A stretch of 63,336 bases of DNA, counting the filler, from Coriobacteriales bacterium (GTDB lineage Bacteria; Actinomycetota; Coriobacteriia; Coriobacteriales; UBA8131): assembly GCA_031263105.1 (NCBI GenBank). It is 6 parts of 6 records of this genome, joined end to end, with 100 filler letters (N's around TTAATTAATTAA, not from the genome) between each part and the next. Parts side by side here need not be neighbours in the genome. Positions count along the whole stretch, not along the records: positions 1 to 11,321 come from JAISGJ010000156.1; 5 more parts are not named here. One strand, 5' to 3'. A program made the position numbers. Below are positions 1-6,000 of the stretch, in pieces; the stretch's first letter is position 1; each line of letters begins with the position of its first letter.

Positions 1-3000
1 CTGGTAAGGAGGAAAGATGTCAGAGGGAAGAGTACCGTCAGAACTAACGCGTCGAAGTTTTCTGAAAACCACTGCAGTCGTAGCCGGAACTGCTGCCTTA
101 GCGGGCGGCTATGGGTGCAGGGGGATCGAGCCGGAGGCAGAAAGCCCAGCAGCCGAAACCGAGACAACGGAAGTCTACTTCCAGAGCTGCATGGGAAACT
201 GCTCGGGTTGGGGCTGCCCCTGCTATGTGCATGTGCGTGAGGGGAAGGTCCGTAACATCAAAAAGGCGAACCTGGAGAGTCCTGACGGCAGCCTTGTGCC
301 CTATCAGGAGACCTGCATGAAAGGCTATGCGAACATCGAGCGCATGTACTCGGCGACGAGAGTGCAGTACCCCTTGAAGCGTGCGGGCGAGCGGGGGGCA
401 GGGGAATGGGAGAGAATCTCTTGGGACGAGGCCGTGAGCGAGATCTGCTCCAAGTGGAAAGAGCTGCAAGCGGAGCATGGGCCGGAGGCGGTCACCTTTA
501 TGTCCGGCTCGGGGAGCGGCATGGCGACCATCTCCTATACCAATCGGCTCAAGGCCCTTATGGGCGCTGCGACCATTGCGCCTGCCTACGACAACTCGGG
601 CATGTACTCGCAATGGACGCATGCTGGTTTCCACCCCATGGTGAACGGACAGAACGAGCACCGCGACATTGCGAACGCAGAGAACGTCTTCATATGGGGC
701 GCAAACCCCACTGAGTCGCTCACCACCGACTATCATTTCATCAGCGAGGCCCAAGAAAAGGGCGCGACCTTGGTGGTCATCGACCCCATCTTCACCACCT
801 CGGCATCGAAGGCCGATGTCTACGTGCCTATCCGCCCCGGCACCGACGGCCTGCTGGCAGCGGCTATGATGCAGATGGTCATACGCGACAACAAGGTGGA
901 CAAGGCGCATCTCCAAAACGCGACCGTGGCCCCCTTCCTGGTAAAAGACGAGGACGGGCTGTACCTGCGCCTGAGTGACGTCGGCAAGGCCGAGGCGGAA
1001 AGCGAGGAAGACCGAATCCTGGTTTACGACAACGGGGAGGCCGTTGCCTTCGACGAGGCGAGCGACCCCGAGATCGAGGGGAACTTCGAGGTCGAGGGCA
1101 TGGGCGTGAAGCCGGCCTATCAGATTCTCTTGGATCGCATATATGTGTGGGACCTCGAGACCATCGCCCAATACACCGACATCCCCCTTGAGACCATAGA
1201 AGAGCTTGCCGGTATCTATACCTCCGGCCTTTCCATGATTGTTACCGGATTCGGCATCGACCACTACGCGAACGCCCAGACCGGCTACGAGGCCATGTTC
1301 GCGCTCATGGACGTGACGGGACAGGAATGCAAGCATGGGGCCGGGTGCGCCTGCGTGGATTTCAGCTCCCCCACTGCGCAGGGTCTCGTCAACACGGCAA
1401 CGGCCGGGCTGGAAGACCTGGTGCCCGGACCTACCGTGCACGCGCCGCACCTGCATCAGCTCATGGAGGAAGGAAGGCTCGGGAGCATCACCGTCGCCCC
1501 GAAGTCCGCCTACATATACATCTGCAACCCCATCGGCAATGAACCCGACCGCCTCAAATGGCTTTCCTCGTTCGCGGCGATGGACATGGTTGTTGTCTCC
1601 GATATGTTCATGTCGGAGACCGCACAGTATGCCGACTACGTGCTTCCGGTTTCCTTCATTTTCGAGCGCGACGACCTCACTGCAGGTCAGAATCCCCTTG
1701 TGAAACTGGTGGACAAGGCCGCCGAGCCGGCCTTCGAGTCGAAGGGCGACTTCGAGATCATCACCCTTTTGGGCAAGGGCATGGGCTTCGAGGGGCAGTT
1801 CACCCAAACGCTCGAAGGGTTCTTGGAGTCCTGCATAACCAACGACACGGCCGCCGAGGCCGGCATCACATGGGAGCGCCTGAAAGAGGAGCATGCCATC
1901 TGGTCGTACCCAGAGGATCCGGTGGTGATCGGGCTCACCACCCCGCCCTTCACCGCAACCGGTCGCATGGAGTTCTATCATGAGGGCATCCAGCCCATGG
2001 CCGATGTCGGCCAGGAATGGGACATGAAAAAGGAGTCCTGCTGGTTCTGGGAGCCGCCCCTTGAGGCTTGGCACGAGAATCCTCTCTTCGAGCGGTTCCC
2101 CCTTATCTTTATCAGTGAGCGCGACAAGTTCAAGACGCATACCATGTTCAACAACGCACCCATGATCCTCGAGATATCCCCCGAGCCCTACGTCAAAGTC
2201 AATCCGTCGGATGCAGGGGCGCGTGGCATCAAGGAAGGCGACACGGTGCGCCTCTACAATGACCGCGGCTTCGTCACGCTCAAGGCCGTCCTCAATCCGG
2301 GATGCCGTCCGGGCATGCTCGTTATCGACCACGGCTGGGAGCGCGATAACTTCATCGACGGCCATTATTCGGACCTGTCGTCGTGTGCCTCTTGGCCTCG
2401 CTACGAGCAGGACAATTGGTTTGACTGCCTGTGCGAGATGGAGAAGGTCCAATAGGAGGAAAGGACTCAATCATGCAATATGGAATGGTTATCGACTTAA
2501 AGAAATGCATAGGCTGCCACTCGTGTGCGACCTCATGCAAATTGGCCAACAACCTGCCGATCGGCATCTGGTGGAACAAGGTGACCACCGAAGGCGGCAC
2601 GACAATCGACACCGCCGCAGGAAGCTACCCGAACTGCACGCTTCGGCACTATCCCATAGCGTGTCAGCACTGCAAGGCACCTGCGTGCGTCGCCGTCTGT
2701 CCGGTCGATGCGACCTACAAAGACGAGGAAACCGGACTCGTGGTTCAGGATAACGAGGCCTGCATCGGCTGCAAGATATGCATGGAGGCCTGTCCCTATG
2801 ACGCGCGGGTGTTCAACGGCGACAACCCTGCCTACACGCTTGACTTCGTCGTCGGGAACGAGAAGGTCGAGCCACATCTGGAAAACGTGGTCGAGAAATG
2901 CACGATGTGCCAAGCCCTGATCGAGGAAGGCGTCGAGCCCATGTGTGTTCAGGCATGTATCGGCTACGCGCGGCACTTCGGCGACCTGGACGACCCGGCC

Positions 3001-6000
3001 TCTGAGGTGTCCCAGCTCATTGCAGCCCGTGAGAACCTGCAACTTCTTGCGGAACAGGGCACCGGCCCGTCAGTCTACTACCTGAAGTGACTTTCTGAGC
3101 CTTGTGCCCACAAATAGGTTTGGGAAGGCTGCACCACTGTCATTCCGAGCCTGCCGAGGAATCTTCGACCGCGCAAGCGGTCGACCGCAGGTCGAAGGGC
3201 CCCCTGACCTGCCGTTGGACACTGCGTGTCCAAAGATTCCCCGGCTTCGCTTCGCTGCGCTCGGAATGACAGTGGAGGTTGGAGTGCAGGGTTGAAGCGA
3301 GCGACACTCCGAGCGCCTGCCTCCGAATGCTGCTAAGATATTGACGTGAGGATTCTTTTGTCATATATTCATGTGACATTATGACACAGTGCTTTTTCGG
3401 GCTGCTCATCGAAGCGCGGTAAGGAGACTCGGTATGCGACTGGCTGCTGGCGTTATCATAGCGATACTGATCGTTGCTGTCACAGGGCGCTTCATGAGGA
3501 AGGCGGCACCTGTCTTCTATCTGCTCGCCTTTGCTCTCGGTGTCTTCTTCATCTGCGGCACTTCGCTTGCGCTGCCCCCTTGGTTCAGAGAATATATCCT
3601 GTTCATCTTCCAGAGCAACAACCTCGCCATGGGTTTCTTCGCCATCGTCATGTTCGCCGGGGCTCTAGGAGAAAAGTCGTCACTGCGGAAGTTCCTGATG
3701 CCGATCCGTGCGGAGCTCTCCATCACCGCATCGATACTCTGCCTCGGCCATGTGGTCGTTTACGGACGTTCCTATCTTGCCCAGATCACGGGCTCCGCCC
3801 TCGCCATGCCCGGCGCGAGGCTGGTCGCCACCGTGGTGGCCTTCCTGCTTCTGGTGCTTTTGATCCCCTTGGCGCTGACATCGGTGCGGGCCGTCAAGGC
3901 ACGGATGAGACCGCAGACCTGGAAGAGCGTCCAGAAGCTCGCCTATGTGTTCTTCCTGCTCATATTCGTTCACATCTTCTTCTACCTCCTGCCGCCCGCG
4001 CTCGCAGGAAGCCTCGGCGCCGCAGTGAGCTTGGCGCTCTACAGTGCGCTTTTCCTTGTCTATCTGGTCCTTCGCATCCGCTTGGCCGCGCAGCACAGCG
4101 AGAGCTCCTTGACGGATACGGTCCAAGGAAGCGCCTGAGAGGTGCCCTGCGTTACACGTCACACCCCCACTGTCCGAACCCCACTGCCACCCCGAACCCC
4201 ACTGTCCGAGCCCCACTGTCCGAGCCCCACTGTCCGAGCCCCACTGTCCGAGTCCCACTGTCATTCCGAGCCTGTCGAGGAATCCTCGACCGCGCCAGCG
4301 GTCGACCGCAGGTCGAAGGGCCCTTCGACCTACCGTTGGACACTGCGTGTCCAAGGATTCCTCGGCGGGGCTCGGAATGACAGTGGGGTGTGACGTGTAA
4401 CTGCCCTGCCCTTGCGGGTGTCGCGAGAGTGCCCGGTACTTGCTCTTCACAAGCTTGTCGTTTAGAATATGGACTTACGAGTTAGTAACTTATGAGTCCA
4501 TATAATGGCAGGAGGATCCGGGTGTTCGTAGGAAGACAAAAGGAGATGGCTGCCCTCGGACGTCTCTACGCACGCGAGGACTTTCAGTTCGTCGTGATGT
4601 ATGGGCGCCGCCGGGTCGGCAAGACCACGCTTCTCAACGAATTCGTGAAAGACAAGCCCGCGTTGTTCTTCTCGGCACCTCAGCACGACGACGCAGGAGC
4701 GCTGCGTGTCTTTTCGGAGAGGCTGCACTCGTTCCTCGGACAGGGCGGCCTCTCTCCCTTTGCCACTTGGGCCGCTGCCTTCGAGCAATTGGCCAAGGCG
4801 GCGGAGGACAGGCGGTTCGTGCTGATAATCGACGAGTTCCCCTATCTGGCAAACGCCAACAGGTCGATACCCTCCCTACTGCAGAACGCCATCGACCGAC
4901 GCCTGAAAGACGGCAGGCTCTTCCTGGTGCTCTGTGGGTCGAGTCTGGGGTTCATGGAGCGTGGTGTGCTCAGCGCCAAAAGCCCTCTCTACGGTCGAGC
5001 GACGGCTCAGTTGCGCATCACGCCCTTTGACTTCGCGACGGCGGCAGACTTCTACCCGCAGTACCGCTTCGAGAGCAAGATGACGGCCTTCGGTGTGCTG
5101 GGCGGCATCCCTAAGTACCTCGAGACCTTCGTCGATACCGAACCCGTTGAGAACAACATCGTAGACCACATCCTGAACGACAGATCGTTGCTCTACGAGG
5201 AACCGATGAACTTCCTGCGCGAGGAGCTCCGTGAGCCGGCGACCTACAACGCCATCATCGAGGCGATAGCCGGCGGGGCGTCCAAGCTCAACGAGATAGC
5301 GACAAAGGCTGGCCTGCCTACGGACAAATGCGCCAAGTACCTGCGGACGCTCATCTCGCTCCATGTCGTCCAGCGGGAGATGCCGGTCATAGGACAGAAC
5401 AGGAAGAACGGCATCTACCGCATCTGTGATAACTTCTTCACCTTCTGGTACCGTTATGTCTTCGAGAATGCCGACATGGTCGAGCGCGGCGACGGCCAAG
5501 GCCTCTATGACCTGTTTGTGCGTCCGGATCTCGACAACTACATAGGCGCCACGGTGTTTGAAGGCATCTGTCAAGAGTATCTTTGGGGGCTCAACGCCCG
5601 TCGCAAGCTGCCCTTCGTCTTCTCAAGGGCGGGACGCTGGTGGGGCAACGACCCTCGGAGGCGAGAGCAGTCAGAGATCGATATAATCGCCTTCCACAAG
5701 CGACAGGCCTTGTTCTGTGAATGCAAGTGGAGAACGGAGAAGCTGGGGCTTGACGTGCTGGAGACGCTGCGGGAGCGAGCAGGCCTGTTTCCCGATTTTT
5801 CCGAGAAACACCTCTATCTGTTCTCTCGCTCCGGCTTCACCAAAGGGCTCAGAGATCACGTGTCGCAACTCGACAGCGCCGAGGTGACCTTGGTCGGACT
5901 TGAGGACCTGGAGAATGTGCTACTGGATACCGACGAGGGCAGCCAGCGTTCGACATAGGTGATGGGCGTCACCTCGGTCACCTCAAGCCGTCAGCTTTGA

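What a model noticed while it worked through the whole genome (the two positions that open the first line are those of the whole stretch)
17..4138. MsrQ/YedZ-like haem-b membrane protein as anchor of six DMSO-reductase-family operons
Six operons for molybdopterin (bis-MGD) oxidoreductases with a four-cluster ferredoxin subunit end not with a DmsC/NrfD-type anchor but with a 223-240-aa six-helix protein of the YedZ/MsrQ (ferric-reductase-domain) family. I read it as a new kind of quinol-oxidising, haem-b-bearing anchor for three-subunit molybdoenzymes, a family so far known only as partner of the unrelated MsrP/YedY. New would be a further anchor type for complex iron-sulfur molybdoenzymes, typical of Eggerthellaceae-like gut Coriobacteriia whose catechol and drug reductases are of wide interest.
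Evidence so far: Paralogues g00042 (C10 3434-4138), g00326 (C33), g00462 (C49), g01305 (C138), g01844 (C184), g02509 (C247) form one blastp family, with no Pfam or NCBIfam row; each lies next to Molybdopterin and Fer4_11-type genes (g02509 at a contig start beside the chaperone only), four of six also next to a Nitrate_red_del/DmsD-like chaperone gene, and none of these operons holds NrfD or DmsC. Five to seven hydrophobic helices by hydropathy and conserved His in helix 3 (GH) and helix 5. 25 relatives in the 5.8-billion-protein set, 10 with a precomputed PF01794 (Ferric_reduct) hit, 11 named by JGI 'DMSO/TMAO reductase YedYZ heme-binding membrane subunit'. Spread: 43 of 151 sampled Coriobacteriales genomes [...]
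(Added by a program. Inside this text positions count along the whole contig: they may not be those of the stretch shown here. "Call 12" and the like, gene names such as g00115 and contig names such as C1 are that model's own, and its searches are not shown. The text may have been shortened before it was handed on; [...] marks where a part breaks off. The agent that wrote the report below was given it as the finding of a first reader that could run no searches.)

Follow-up and report, generated by a model that had tools for sequence, protein, structure and literature searches.

The report
Ferric-reductase-type membrane subunit of molybdenum reductases
In this termite-gut Coriobacteriia genome and its Eggerthellaceae relatives, some exported molybdenum reductases carry a small haem-type membrane protein of the NOX/STEAP/MsrQ superfamily where the usual NrfD/DmsC anchor would sit. 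This pairing is not described in the papers I could search, and it may change how electrons reach these enzymes.

Summary
Window 3434-4138 encodes a 234-aa membrane protein with exactly six paralogues in the genome. Four of the six follow a Tat-signal or Mo-bisMGD catalytic gene and a 16-Cys four-cluster ferredoxin gene, without NrfD or DmsC. In 43 of 50 non-Firmicutes relatives' loci the same pairing recurs.

The protein belongs to a divergent branch of the ferric-reductase-domain (FRD) superfamily. Structural matches are STEAP4 (Z 12.6), STEAP1, NOX5 and SpNOX, and 69 of 104 relatives hit PF01794. It is not MsrQ proper (27.5 bits against a cut-off of 130). It keeps only the outer bis-His haem pair (H106/H180). 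It also keeps the residues that line the cytoplasm-side flavin pocket of MsrQ/STEAP.

A predicted complex puts its three outer loops against the distal cluster of the ferredoxin subunit (ipSAE 0.62; best control 0.00). The window's catalytic subunit is sister to one on the same contig that uses NrfD, so anchors are swapped as modules.

"Quinol-oxidising" is untested. The nearest relatives are Firmicutes FRD-FMN_bind fusions. Databases already name the domain; papers say only "putative membrane anchor".

Caveat: the window's own B-C join runs through a 266-copy repeat.

The parts
17..2455 (+). A subunit: Tat-signal Mo-bisMGD catalytic subunit, 812 aa
   Evidence: Pfam Molybdopterin 4.8e-45, Molydop_binding 8.9e-19, TAT_signal 2.7e-5. 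No NCBIfam model is reached at its cut-off. It is 49% identical to the A subunit at 8837-11305. Its first 103 bases lie inside the 119-nt inverted contig ends.
2473..3090 (+). B subunit: four-cluster ferredoxin, 205 aa from the ATG at 2473
   Evidence: Fer4_11 9.9e-21. 16 Cys in four groups are invariant across 36 B subunits that precede C genes. It is 64% identical to the B subunit of the NrfD operon.
3134..3275 (.). Copy of a dispersed intergenic repeat that fills most of the B-C gap
   Evidence: blastn finds 266 copies of 100 bp or more on 154 of 250 contigs. Word depth here is about 5874 against about 26 in the flanks. No independent contig bridges it.
3341..3369 (+). Sigma-70-like promoter match upstream of C
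   Evidence: 10 of 12 hexamer matches with a 17-nt spacer. This is a consensus match only. An AAGGAG lies 8 nt before the ATG at 3434.
3434..4138 (+). C subunit: 234-aa FRD-superfamily membrane protein. It has seven helices: one N-terminal helix plus a six-helix core. Presumed haem b ligands are H106 and H180. The inner pocket is R92, L146, S150, W163, Q167, Y171.
   Evidence: AF2 pLDDT 95.8. STEAP4 Z 12.6 and STEAP1 Z 12.2. Invariant residues. Alignment to E. coli MsrQ. Predicted contact with B.
4255..4366 (.). Second copy of the same dispersed repeat, just after C
   Evidence: 92% identity over 112 bp; depth peak.
6931..8190 (-). NrfD-type anchor of the neighbouring sister operon (used for comparison)
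   Evidence: Pfam NrfD 1.2e-43.
8205..8876 (-). B subunit of the sister operon
   Evidence: Fer4_11 6.5e-21; 64% identical to window B.
8837..11305 (-). A subunit of the sister operon, the nearest paralogue of window A
   Evidence: Pfam; 49% identity; sister to window A with SH-aLRT 100.

Best explanation
The gene at 3434-4138 encodes the membrane subunit of an exported three-subunit molybdoenzyme. The other two subunits are the Mo-bisMGD catalytic subunit A and the four-cluster ferredoxin B. The membrane subunit belongs to a distinct branch of the ferric-reductase-domain superfamily.

Its architecture is an extra N-terminal helix followed by the six-helix core. One b-type haem is held near the outer face by H106 and H180. 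At the cytoplasmic leaflet there is a conserved pocket homologous to the flavin site of MsrQ and STEAP (R92, L146, S150, W163, Q167, Y171).

Its three outer loops seat the B subunit so that B's distal [4Fe-4S] cluster lies over the haem. Electrons enter at the inner pocket, cross the membrane to the haem, and run through B's four clusters to the molybdenum site outside the cell. It therefore fills the place that NrfD/DmsC fills in sister enzymes.

Shown: the fold class, the conserved residues, the gene neighbourhood, and the module swap with NrfD. Inferred: haem binding, contact with B, and the direction of electron flow. Open: the electron donor. It could be menaquinol at the inner pocket, or a bound flavin fed by a cytoplasmic NAD(P)H reductase as reported for MsrQ.
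For: Fold and family.
- AF2 model with pLDDT 95.8 and pTM 0.90.
- VIA-align best matches: STEAP4 Z 12.6 (194 aligned), STEAP1 12.2, Dcytb 10.0, NOX5 TM domain 9.7, SpNOX 9.4.
- The Foldseek top seven are STEAP1/4/2 and SpNOX, best E 5.7e-3, TM about 0.53-0.55.
- 69 of 104 relatives match PF01794 at E<=1e-3, and no other family is matched.

Cofactor sites.
- H106 and H180 are present in 104 of 104 relatives, and no other His column is conserved.
- hhalign, hmmalign and mafft all pair H106/H180 with MsrQ H91/H164. They also pair R92, L146, S150, W163, Q167 and Y171 with MsrQ R77, L131, S135, W147, H151 and Y155.
- PMC12525009 (passages) gives H91/H164 as ligands of the single periplasm-side haem. 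It gives R77, L131, S135, W147 and H151 as the FMN pocket, with Gln at the H151 position in STEAP.

Topology. K+R per loop is 2.0, 3.7, 4.4 and 4.9 (loops 1, 3, 5 and the C-terminus) against 1.8, 0.9 and 0.4 (loops 2, 4, 6). This places both His in the outer half and the pocket residues at the inner face.

Gene neighbourhood.
- Four of this genome's six copies have A and B in cis.
- 43 of 50 non-Firmicutes loci have A and B within 5 kb, and 27 of these are A-B-chaperone-C on one strand.

Contact with B.
- ipSAE is 0.62 (runs 0.62, 0.67, 0.59) against a best control of 0.00 from three controls. That mark was reached by 116 of 157 solved complexes and by 2 of 215 mismatched pairs. Runs share at least 81% of contacts, and partner pLDDT is at least 83.
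- The interface on C is residues 43-61, 109-129 and 184-196, which are exactly the three predicted outer loops.
- The interface on B is residues 67-80 and 93-108, around C76, C97, C100 and C103.
- By the NarH/DmsB ligation pattern, which I recall and no call supplied, those four Cys hold the distal cluster FS4.
- I know of no solved FRD-ferredoxin complex, so I do not think the pass comes from memory of one. This is my recollection, not a check.

Module swap. Window A is sister to C10_8837 (SH-aLRT 100; 49-51% identity), their B subunits are 64% identical, and that operon ends in NrfD. The five FRD-linked A subunits need five changes on the tree of 48 A subunits.

Relatives point the same way. 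The Firmicutes long forms fuse the same domain to FMN_bind (6 of 7 long representatives and 3 of 3 long loci scanned). In L019 the fusion gene is followed by ApbE. This fits an outward electron conduit as described in PMC8238504 (passages).

Haem use is plausible. A ferrochelatase and a Ni_hydr_CYTB cytochrome b are present in the genome.
Against: - No biochemical datum exists for any member of the family.
- The window copy gives no Pfam hit. The profile comparison with a single MsrQ sequence has only 10% probability (E 0.0031).
- Foldseek gives no match at E<=0.001. For helical bundles the tool warns that Z under about 13 can reflect a common arrangement.
- The complex calibration held no riding ligand and did not use my own alignments.
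- In the window, C is separated from B by 343 bp that hold a repeat and a promoter-like site. The join is not bridged by independent contigs.
- Two Coriobacteriia loci with about 7.8 kb of upstream DNA have no A or B (L054, L087). L049 also has none, but it is cut at the contig end.
- ALAD (HemB) was not found in this 86%-complete MAG.
- 28 of the 48 A subunits have no anchor gene of any of the three types within 4.5 kb, although many of them lie at contig ends. Anchors may not be obligatory for these enzymes.
Confidence: 0.7

Rival explanations
1. The protein plays the same anchor role but is a menaquinol oxidase like DmsC/NrfD. Quinol is the donor, the haem relays electrons to B, and no flavin or cytoplasmic donor is involved.
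For: The genome relies heavily on quinol-type anchors, with 20 NrfD places and 3 DmsC places. The sister operon of the window enzyme uses NrfD, so the same electron pool is the simplest donor. PMC12525009 (passages) reports a quinone bound to MsrQ near the FMN site and cites genetic work that proposed the quinone pool as MsrQ's donor.
Against: No residue or site for quinol is identified. The conserved pocket matches the flavin pocket residue for residue. The same paper concludes that ubiquinone cannot donate to MsrQ and measures the MsrQ haem near -250 mV, which would be hard for menaquinol to reduce. The pocket lies at the cytoplasmic side, unlike a DmsC-type outer-face site.
Confidence: 0.3
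2. C is not a subunit of the molybdoenzyme. It is an independent FRD-type reductase or electron exporter (metal, flavin or another acceptor) that is merely co-located or co-regulated with reductase operons.
For: Firmicutes relatives work without any Mo enzyme: 0 of 30 loci have A or B. Two Coriobacteriia loci lack A and B (L054, L087). In the window, C has its own promoter-like site. Four loci have C divergent from A-B: three as D-B-A on the other strand, and L035 with A only.
Against: The gene order is conserved across at least ten named genera. C commonly overlaps or abuts the chaperone gene. The predicted B-C interface passes with controls at 0.00 and uses exactly the outer loops and the distal-cluster face. 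None of the six operons has another anchor.
Confidence: 0.12
3. Electrons flow the other way. The Mo enzyme oxidises an outside substrate, and C carries the electrons inward to a quinone or to a cytoplasmic acceptor.
For: The cofactor chain is reversible in principle, and nothing in the sequence fixes the direction. PMC12525009 (abstract and passages) suggests that ubiquinone may accept electrons from reduced MsrQ.
Against: The characterised relatives of these A subunits in Eggerthellaceae are reductases or dehydroxylases (PMC7028382, passages). MsrQ, STEAP and NOX all carry electrons outward. Inward electron flow would work against the membrane potential.
Confidence: 0.08
4. This rival concerns the window only. 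The adjacency of C to A-B on contig C10 is an assembly join through the repeat, and this C copy belongs to another operon.
For: The repeat has 266 copies. Independent contigs end at 3163 and start at 3250, and none bridges the gap. The contig ends are a perfect 119-nt inverted pair, which looks like an assembly-graph effect. Unlike its nearest relative L012 (A-B-D-C), no chaperone gene precedes C here.
Against: Depths are alike on both sides (26.5 and 21.3). The MAG contig does span the gap. Whatever the truth here, the other copies and 43 of 50 loci carry the finding.
Confidence: 0.15

Closest known systems
MsrQ (YedZ) of the E. coli MsrPQ system
   Same: Both have the FRD six-helix core and no soluble domain. 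The haem ligands align (H91/H164 with H106/H180), as do the inner-pocket residues R77, L131, S135, W147 and Y155. Both serve an exported molybdoenzyme.
   Different: The partner here is a Mo-bisMGD enzyme reached through a four-cluster ferredoxin, not the sulfite-oxidase-type MsrP. Gln stands where MsrQ has His151. There is an extra N-terminal helix. The NCBIfam MsrQ score is 27.5 bits against a cut-off of 130. The family profile finds only 1069 representatives at E<=0.001 in 1.84 billion proteins, so it is a separate branch.
STEAP1-4 metalloreductases (membrane domain)
   Same: These are the best structural matches (Z 12.6 and 12.2). They have a single outer haem and an inner flavin site with Gln at the position of Q167 (PMC12525009, passages).
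   Different: STEAPs are eukaryotic. STEAP2-4 carry a cytosolic NADPH domain, and their acceptor is a metal ion rather than a protein partner. Sequence identity is 14-18%.
NrfD/PsrC and DmsC anchors of complex iron-sulfur molybdoenzymes
   Same: They occupy the same operon position and the same presumed role. Sister A/B pairs on one contig use one type or the other.
   Different: The fold is unrelated: C gives no Pfam hit to NrfD or DmsC. By established knowledge (recalled), NrfD/DmsC carry no haem and oxidise quinol near the outer face.
'MsrQ-like' flavinylation-associated systems (Meheust et al. 2021, PMC8238504)
   Same: These are the nearest sequence relatives. Firmicutes proteins carry the same domain fused to FMN_bind, next to ApbE in L019. 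The logic is the same: carry electrons to an extracytosolic redox partner.
   Different: The window's family members have no FMN_bind or ApbE neighbour, and their partner is a ferredoxin subunit. The paper describes two haem sites and frequent NAD-binding domains for its set (passages). This branch has one His pair and no such domain.
Haem b anchors NarI, FdnI and PhsC
   Same: They are haem b membrane subunits that wire a four-cluster subunit to the membrane. PhsC-type anchors are thought to carry electrons across the membrane with help from the membrane potential (recalled, not from a call).
   Different: They are different folds and dihaem proteins. The genome's PF01292 hits lie elsewhere (C55, C60).

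Membership tests
Ferric-reductase-domain superfamily (Pfam PF01794) | Profile match at the curated cut-off (28 bits) | tested here: inconclusive
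   The window copy gives no hit at E<=1. In hmmscan, paralogues score 26.3 and 21.6 bits. In the six-frame search, five of six match and two are over the cut-off. 69 of 104 relatives match at E<=1e-3.
Ferric-reductase-domain superfamily (Pfam PF01794) | Six-helix core fold like the NOX/STEAP membrane domains | tested here: met
   STEAP4 Z 12.6 (194 aligned), STEAP1 12.2, NOX5 TM 9.7, SpNOX 9.4, DUOX1 9.1, NOX2 8.5. The Foldseek top ranks are the same proteins, best E 5.7e-3.
Ferric-reductase-domain superfamily (Pfam PF01794) | Conserved His in core helices 3 and 5 that ligate haem b | tested here: met
   H106 and H180 are present in 104 of 104 relatives and align with MsrQ H91/H164. Haem binding itself cannot be tested here.
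MsrQ/YedZ proper (NCBIfam NF003831) | Score at the equivalog cut-off (130 bits) | tested here: not met
   27.5 bits, E 2e-6, covering only profile positions 118-199 of 212.
MsrQ/YedZ proper (NCBIfam NF003831) | Adjacent MsrP (sulfite-oxidase-family Mo-MPT enzyme, PF00174) | tested here: not met
   The neighbours are PF00384 and Fer4_11 genes. The genome's two PF00174 places are on C53, where no FRD gene lies.
MsrQ/YedZ proper (NCBIfam NF003831) | His at the position of His151 over the flavin | tested here: not met
   Gln in 102 of 104 relatives and His in 2; aligned.
Complex iron-sulfur molybdoenzyme (three-subunit Mo-bisMGD enzyme) | Catalytic subunit with Molybdopterin and Molydop_binding domains and a Tat signal | tested here: met
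   The Tat signal lies within the first 119 nt, which are shared with the other contig end.
Complex iron-sulfur molybdoenzyme (three-subunit Mo-bisMGD enzyme) | Four-cluster protein with four Cys groups | tested here: met
   16 Cys are invariant in 36 B subunits; Fer4_11 hit.
Complex iron-sulfur molybdoenzyme (three-subunit Mo-bisMGD enzyme) | Membrane anchor of a described type (NrfD/DmsC, NarI, FdnI-type cytochrome b) | tested here: not met
   C gives no such Pfam hit, and no NrfD or DmsC place lies in the six operons. This is the point of the finding.
'MsrQ-like' flavinylation system (PMC8238504) | FMN_bind domain and ApbE in the gene cluster | tested here: not met
   None is present in the window's operon or the paralogues' contexts. 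Both are present in the Firmicutes relatives.

The most novel reading that the evidence does not exclude
A subset of extracellular molybdenum reductases in Eggerthellaceae-like bacteria may not be fed by quinol at the outer face. Instead electrons would cross the membrane from a cytoplasm-facing flavin or quinol pocket through one haem b. Such a conduit would be quinone-independent or assisted by the membrane potential, a 'reverse loop'. Swapping NrfD for the FRD subunit between sister enzymes would then be how the cell trades energy conservation for driving force with difficult acceptors.
Probability: 0.3. Interest if true: 0.8.

Novelty: new variant of a known kind. Interest (0 to 1): 0.62.

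Why it matters
Reviews of complex iron-sulfur molybdoenzymes list a few anchor types: NarI, FdnI-type cytochrome b, and NrfD/DmsC (recalled). An FRD-type subunit would add one with a different cofactor set and, probably, a different side of electron entry.

This bears on how much energy these respirations conserve. It also bears on which electron pool drives the reduction of dietary, host and drug molecules by Eggerthellaceae. The literature on these enzymes calls the third subunit only a 'putative membrane anchor' or 'hypothetical protein' (PMC7028382 passages and supplement; PMC11574389 passages).

For practice: heterologous expression or purification of such enzymes may need this subunit, haem, and possibly flavin. 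Operon surveys that look only for dmsC would score these operons as 'lacking the anchor'. PMC4464133 reports exactly that kind of operon (passage).

For the FRD superfamily, this would be a second bacterial protein partner class beside MsrP.

Tried and rejected
- A profile search of solved-structure sequences with the family alignment gave nothing meaningful. The best hit was a designed protein at E 0.03, and STEAP4 scored E 8.3.
- The search with E. coli MsrQ for a diverse MsrQ alignment listed only close enterobacterial relatives (77-100% identity to the query among the 120 shown). No useful MsrQ profile could be built, so the hhalign test stayed single-sequence at 10% probability.
- The Hcdh and Cadh anchors are annotated 'hypothetical protein' in the supplement of PMC7028382, with no sequence. 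I could not test whether the anchors of the characterised E. lenta dehydroxylases belong to this family. In this MAG, the one 1187-aa, Hcdh-sized A subunit sits beside a DmsC-type place. That link is therefore not assumed.
- No RNA holder was listed for the stretch, so co-transcription could not be examined.
- Contigs of run X1 leave 3164-3249 unbridged.
His-His distance and pocket geometry could not be measured, so topology rests on helix limits and K+R counts.
- I asked whether FRD-linked A subunits form one enzyme clade. They do not: five changes on the tree.
- I asked whether the 28 anchor-less A subunits hide divergent FRD genes. The family profile finds none.
- The Lacrimispora-type short stand-alone clade has no redox neighbours in L055, and its role stays open.

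Full report
**What the window is.** It is a chain of contigs from one metagenome-assembled genome: G000, 2.9 Mb, 250 contigs, 86% complete, 6.5% contamination. Window positions 1-11321 are contig C10. The only public run that holds the stretch is labelled termite gut metagenome. The organism is therefore a relative of the human-gut Eggerthellaceae, not one of them.

**The genes.** The + strand of C10 carries three genes.
- A, 17-2455: 812 aa, with Molybdopterin, Molydop_binding and TAT_signal hits.
- B, 2473-3090: 205 aa, Fer4_11.
- C, 3434-4138: 234 aa.

B belongs to the four-cluster class. 16 Cys in four groups are invariant across 36 B subunits that precede C genes.

C has six copies in the genome. 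A profile of 104 relatives finds exactly these six and nothing else, even at E<=10.

The contexts of the copies are as follows.
- C49, C138 and C184 are A-B-chaperone(Nitrate_red_del)-C.
- C33 is B-A-C.
- C247 begins with a chaperone fragment and then C.

No NrfD or DmsC lies in any of these operons, although the genome has 20 NrfD places and 3 DmsC places elsewhere, for 49 Molybdopterin places in all. The FRD-type operons are a minority.

**What C is.**
- The AlphaFold2 model is confident (pLDDT 95.8).
- Its best structural matches are all membrane domains of the ferric-reductase-domain superfamily: STEAP4 Z 12.6, STEAP1 12.2, NOX5 9.7, SpNOX 9.4, DUOX1 9.1, NOX2 8.5. The functionally similar cytochromes b561 and Dcytb also appear. 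Foldseek ranks the same proteins first, though none at E<=0.001.
- At the sequence level the window copy misses Pfam altogether. However, 69 of 104 relatives match PF01794 at E<=1e-3 and nothing else.
- Five of the six paralogues match PF01794 in the genome search.
- It is not MsrQ proper: 27.5 bits against a cut-off of 130.
- The family profile finds only 1069 representatives at E<=0.001 among 1.84 billion. This is a compact branch, not the broad MsrQ family.

**Cofactor sites.** Only two His are invariant, H106 and H180 (104 of 104). Three alignment methods pair them with MsrQ H91 and H164. The same alignments pair R92, L146, S150, W163, Q167 and Y171 with MsrQ R77, L131, S135, W147, H151 and Y155.

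According to PMC12525009 (passages read):
- H91 and H164 hold the single periplasm-side haem of MsrQ.
- R77, L131, S135, W147 and H151 line its cytoplasm-side FMN pocket.
- STEAP has Gln at the H151 position.

The family thus keeps one outer haem site and, residue for residue, a STEAP-like inner pocket.

The K+R counts of the loops put loops 1, 3, 5 and the C-terminus inside and loops 2, 4, 6 outside. This gives seven helices: one extra N-terminal helix before the six-helix core, since STEAP4 aligns from residue 17. Both His then lie in the outer half, and the pocket lies at the inner face.

**Is it the anchor?** Four lines of evidence bear on this.

1. Synteny beyond this genome. Of the 80 best loci from one genome per species, I scored neighbours with profiles built from this genome's own A, B and chaperone proteins.
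   - 50 loci are not Firmicutes: 49 are labelled Coriobacteriia or Actinomycetota and one is an 'Acidobacteriota' MAG.
   - 43 of the 50 have both A and B within 5 kb. 45 have A.
   - The commonest order is A-B-chaperone-C on one strand (27 loci).
   - Three have neither A nor B. One of them is cut at the contig end. Two (L054, L087) are real exceptions.

2. A predicted B-C complex with haem riding along passes its controls.
   - ipSAE is 0.62 (0.62, 0.67, 0.59) against a best control of 0.00. That mark was reached by 116 of 157 solved complexes and by 2 of 215 mismatches.
   - At least 81% of contacts are shared between runs, and partner pLDDT is at least 83.
   - The calibration had no riding ligand and did not use my alignments.
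   - The contacting residues of C are 43-61, 109-129 and 184-196, exactly the three loops that the charge rule puts outside.
   - Those of B surround C76, C97, C100 and C103. By the ligation pattern known from NarH and DmsB (recalled, not from a call), these hold the cluster farthest from the molybdenum.

3. Module swap. The nearest paralogue of window A is the A subunit at 8837-11305 on the same contig (SH-aLRT 100; 49% identity). Their B subunits are 64% identical. That operon ends in an NrfD protein. On the tree of 48 A subunits, the five FRD-linked ones fall in five places. Two row labels on that tree were set by hand, as noted for the operators.

4. No other anchor gene is present in these six operons.

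**Relatives outside the Coriobacteriia.** 30 of the 80 loci are Firmicutes, and none has A or B.
- Half of them are long forms. In 3 of 3 long loci and 6 of 7 long representatives scanned, the same domain is followed by an FMN_bind domain.
- In L019 the next gene is ApbE.
- These are the 'MsrQ-like' flavinylation systems of PMC8238504 (passages), which are thought to pass electrons to an extracytosolic flavin.
- On the family tree, the Firmicutes forms stand apart from the Coriobacteriia forms. The window copy and L012 stand nearest to the Firmicutes group, with weak support of 92.

In a class-wide sample, 16 of 200 other genomes carry the family: 15 of 25 in one family, 1 of 34 in another, and none in the rest searched.

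**How it most likely works.** Electrons enter at the inner pocket, pass to the outer haem b, and from there go to B's distal cluster. They then run through three more clusters to the molybdenum site outside the cell.
- Shown: the fold class, the conserved residues, the neighbourhood, and the swap with NrfD.
- Inferred: haem binding, contact with B, and the direction of flow.
- Open: the donor. The pocket is of the flavin type. MsrQ's donor is itself disputed between the quinone pool and the cytosolic flavin reductase Fre, and ubiquinone was found unable to donate.

If electrons do start at the cytoplasmic side, the transfer runs with the membrane potential. That would cost energy yield but add driving force. 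This is the boldest reading the data allow.

**What is known already.**
- NCBI names many members 'ferric reductase-like transmembrane domain-containing protein' and others 'hypothetical protein'. UniProt says 'Ferric oxidoreductase domain-containing protein'. JGI gives the COG name for YedZ. The domain assignment is therefore not new.
- The papers on Eggerthella dehydroxylases speak of a 'putative membrane anchor' or a 'membrane anchor subunit (gamma)', and list the genes as hypothetical proteins that are strongly co-induced (log2 fold change 11.2 and 8.0). Sources: PMC7028382 passages and supplement file 12; PMC11574389 and PMC11585353 passages.
- The paper on the FRD superfamily names YedZ as the only characterised bacterial one-domain member (PMC3591440, passages).
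- Eight full-text searches found no paper that links an FRD protein to a Mo-bisMGD/four-cluster enzyme. Subscription-only papers are not covered by these searches.

**Caveats for the window's own operon.**
- The 343-bp B-C gap is mostly one copy of a dispersed repeat (266 copies of 100 bp or more on 154 contigs).
- It is followed by a promoter-like site and a good ribosome-binding site.
- The independent contigs of the holding run stop at 3163 and resume at 3250.
- The contig's two ends are a perfect 119-nt inverted pair. As a result the first 34 residues of the two A paralogues, Tat signal included, are identical. This looks like an assembly-graph effect.

These caveats touch this one copy, not the family-wide pattern.

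**Verdict.** This is a real, conserved and apparently undescribed pairing of a known membrane-domain superfamily with a known enzyme class, so it is a new variant of a known kind. I give about 0.7 to the anchor and electron-conduit role. The electron donor is unknown.

Noticed in passing
window 3134-3275 and 4255-4366; genome-wide: A dispersed intergenic repeat of about 112-142 bp with internal inverted symmetry. There are 266 copies of 100 bp or more on 154 of 250 contigs, at 87-98% identity, and it breaks independent assemblies. It looks like a MITE- or REP-type element of very high copy number for a 2.9-Mb genome.
   Followed up: partly
window 1-119 and 11203-11321: The two ends of contig C10 are perfectly complementary over exactly 119 nt. 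The two A paralogues therefore share an identical first 34 residues, although they are only 49% identical overall. This is probably an assembly-graph effect, or otherwise recent gene conversion.
   Followed up: partly
G000, many contigs (for example C172:3827, C230:10357, C160:58987, C82:3958): 28 of 48 full-length Mo-bisMGD catalytic genes have no NrfD, DmsC or FRD gene within 4.5 kb. Several of these are not near a contig end and have no multi-helix ORF downstream. They may be soluble, or they may share anchors in trans. Seven of them sit in the same clade as two FRD-linked enzymes.
   Followed up: partly
G000 whole genome: 49 Molybdopterin-domain places in a 2.9-Mb, 86%-complete genome. This is an Eggerthella-like arsenal of reductases in a termite-gut lineage.
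   Followed up: no
window 4492-5958 (+): A 488-aa ATPase_2 plus DUF234 protein lies directly downstream of C. No evident link to the operon.
   Followed up: no
L041, L043, L044, L048, L050-L052, L055, L056, L062, L063, L069, L078, L085: A tight clade of short (237-253 aa) stand-alone family members in Lacrimispora, Clostridium and Paenibacillaceae-labelled genomes. They have no FMN_bind fusion. In L055 there are no redox genes nearby: the neighbours are RDD, 2'-5' RNA ligase and a GntR regulator. Their partner is unknown.
   Followed up: partly
L086 and L072: A locus labelled Subdoligranulum sp. CAG:314 carries a C gene that nests inside the Coriobacteriia clade without A or B. An 'Acidobacteriota' MAG carries A, B and C. 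This could be mis-binning or gene transfer.
   Followed up: no
G000:C24:7347-8309; whole genome: A ferrochelatase is present, but ALAD (HemB) was not found in this 86%-complete MAG. The organism may depend on imported porphyrin or haem precursors, or the gene may simply be unassembled.
   Followed up: no
G000:C53:3622-5168: Two adjacent sulfite-oxidase-family (Oxidored_molyb, MsrP-like) places with no FRD gene on that contig.
   Followed up: no
window 5991-6848 (-): A 285-aa ORF downstream of the NrfD gene of the sister operon has no Pfam hit at E<=1e-4 and did not match my chaperone profile. It may be a divergent maturation protein.
   Followed up: no
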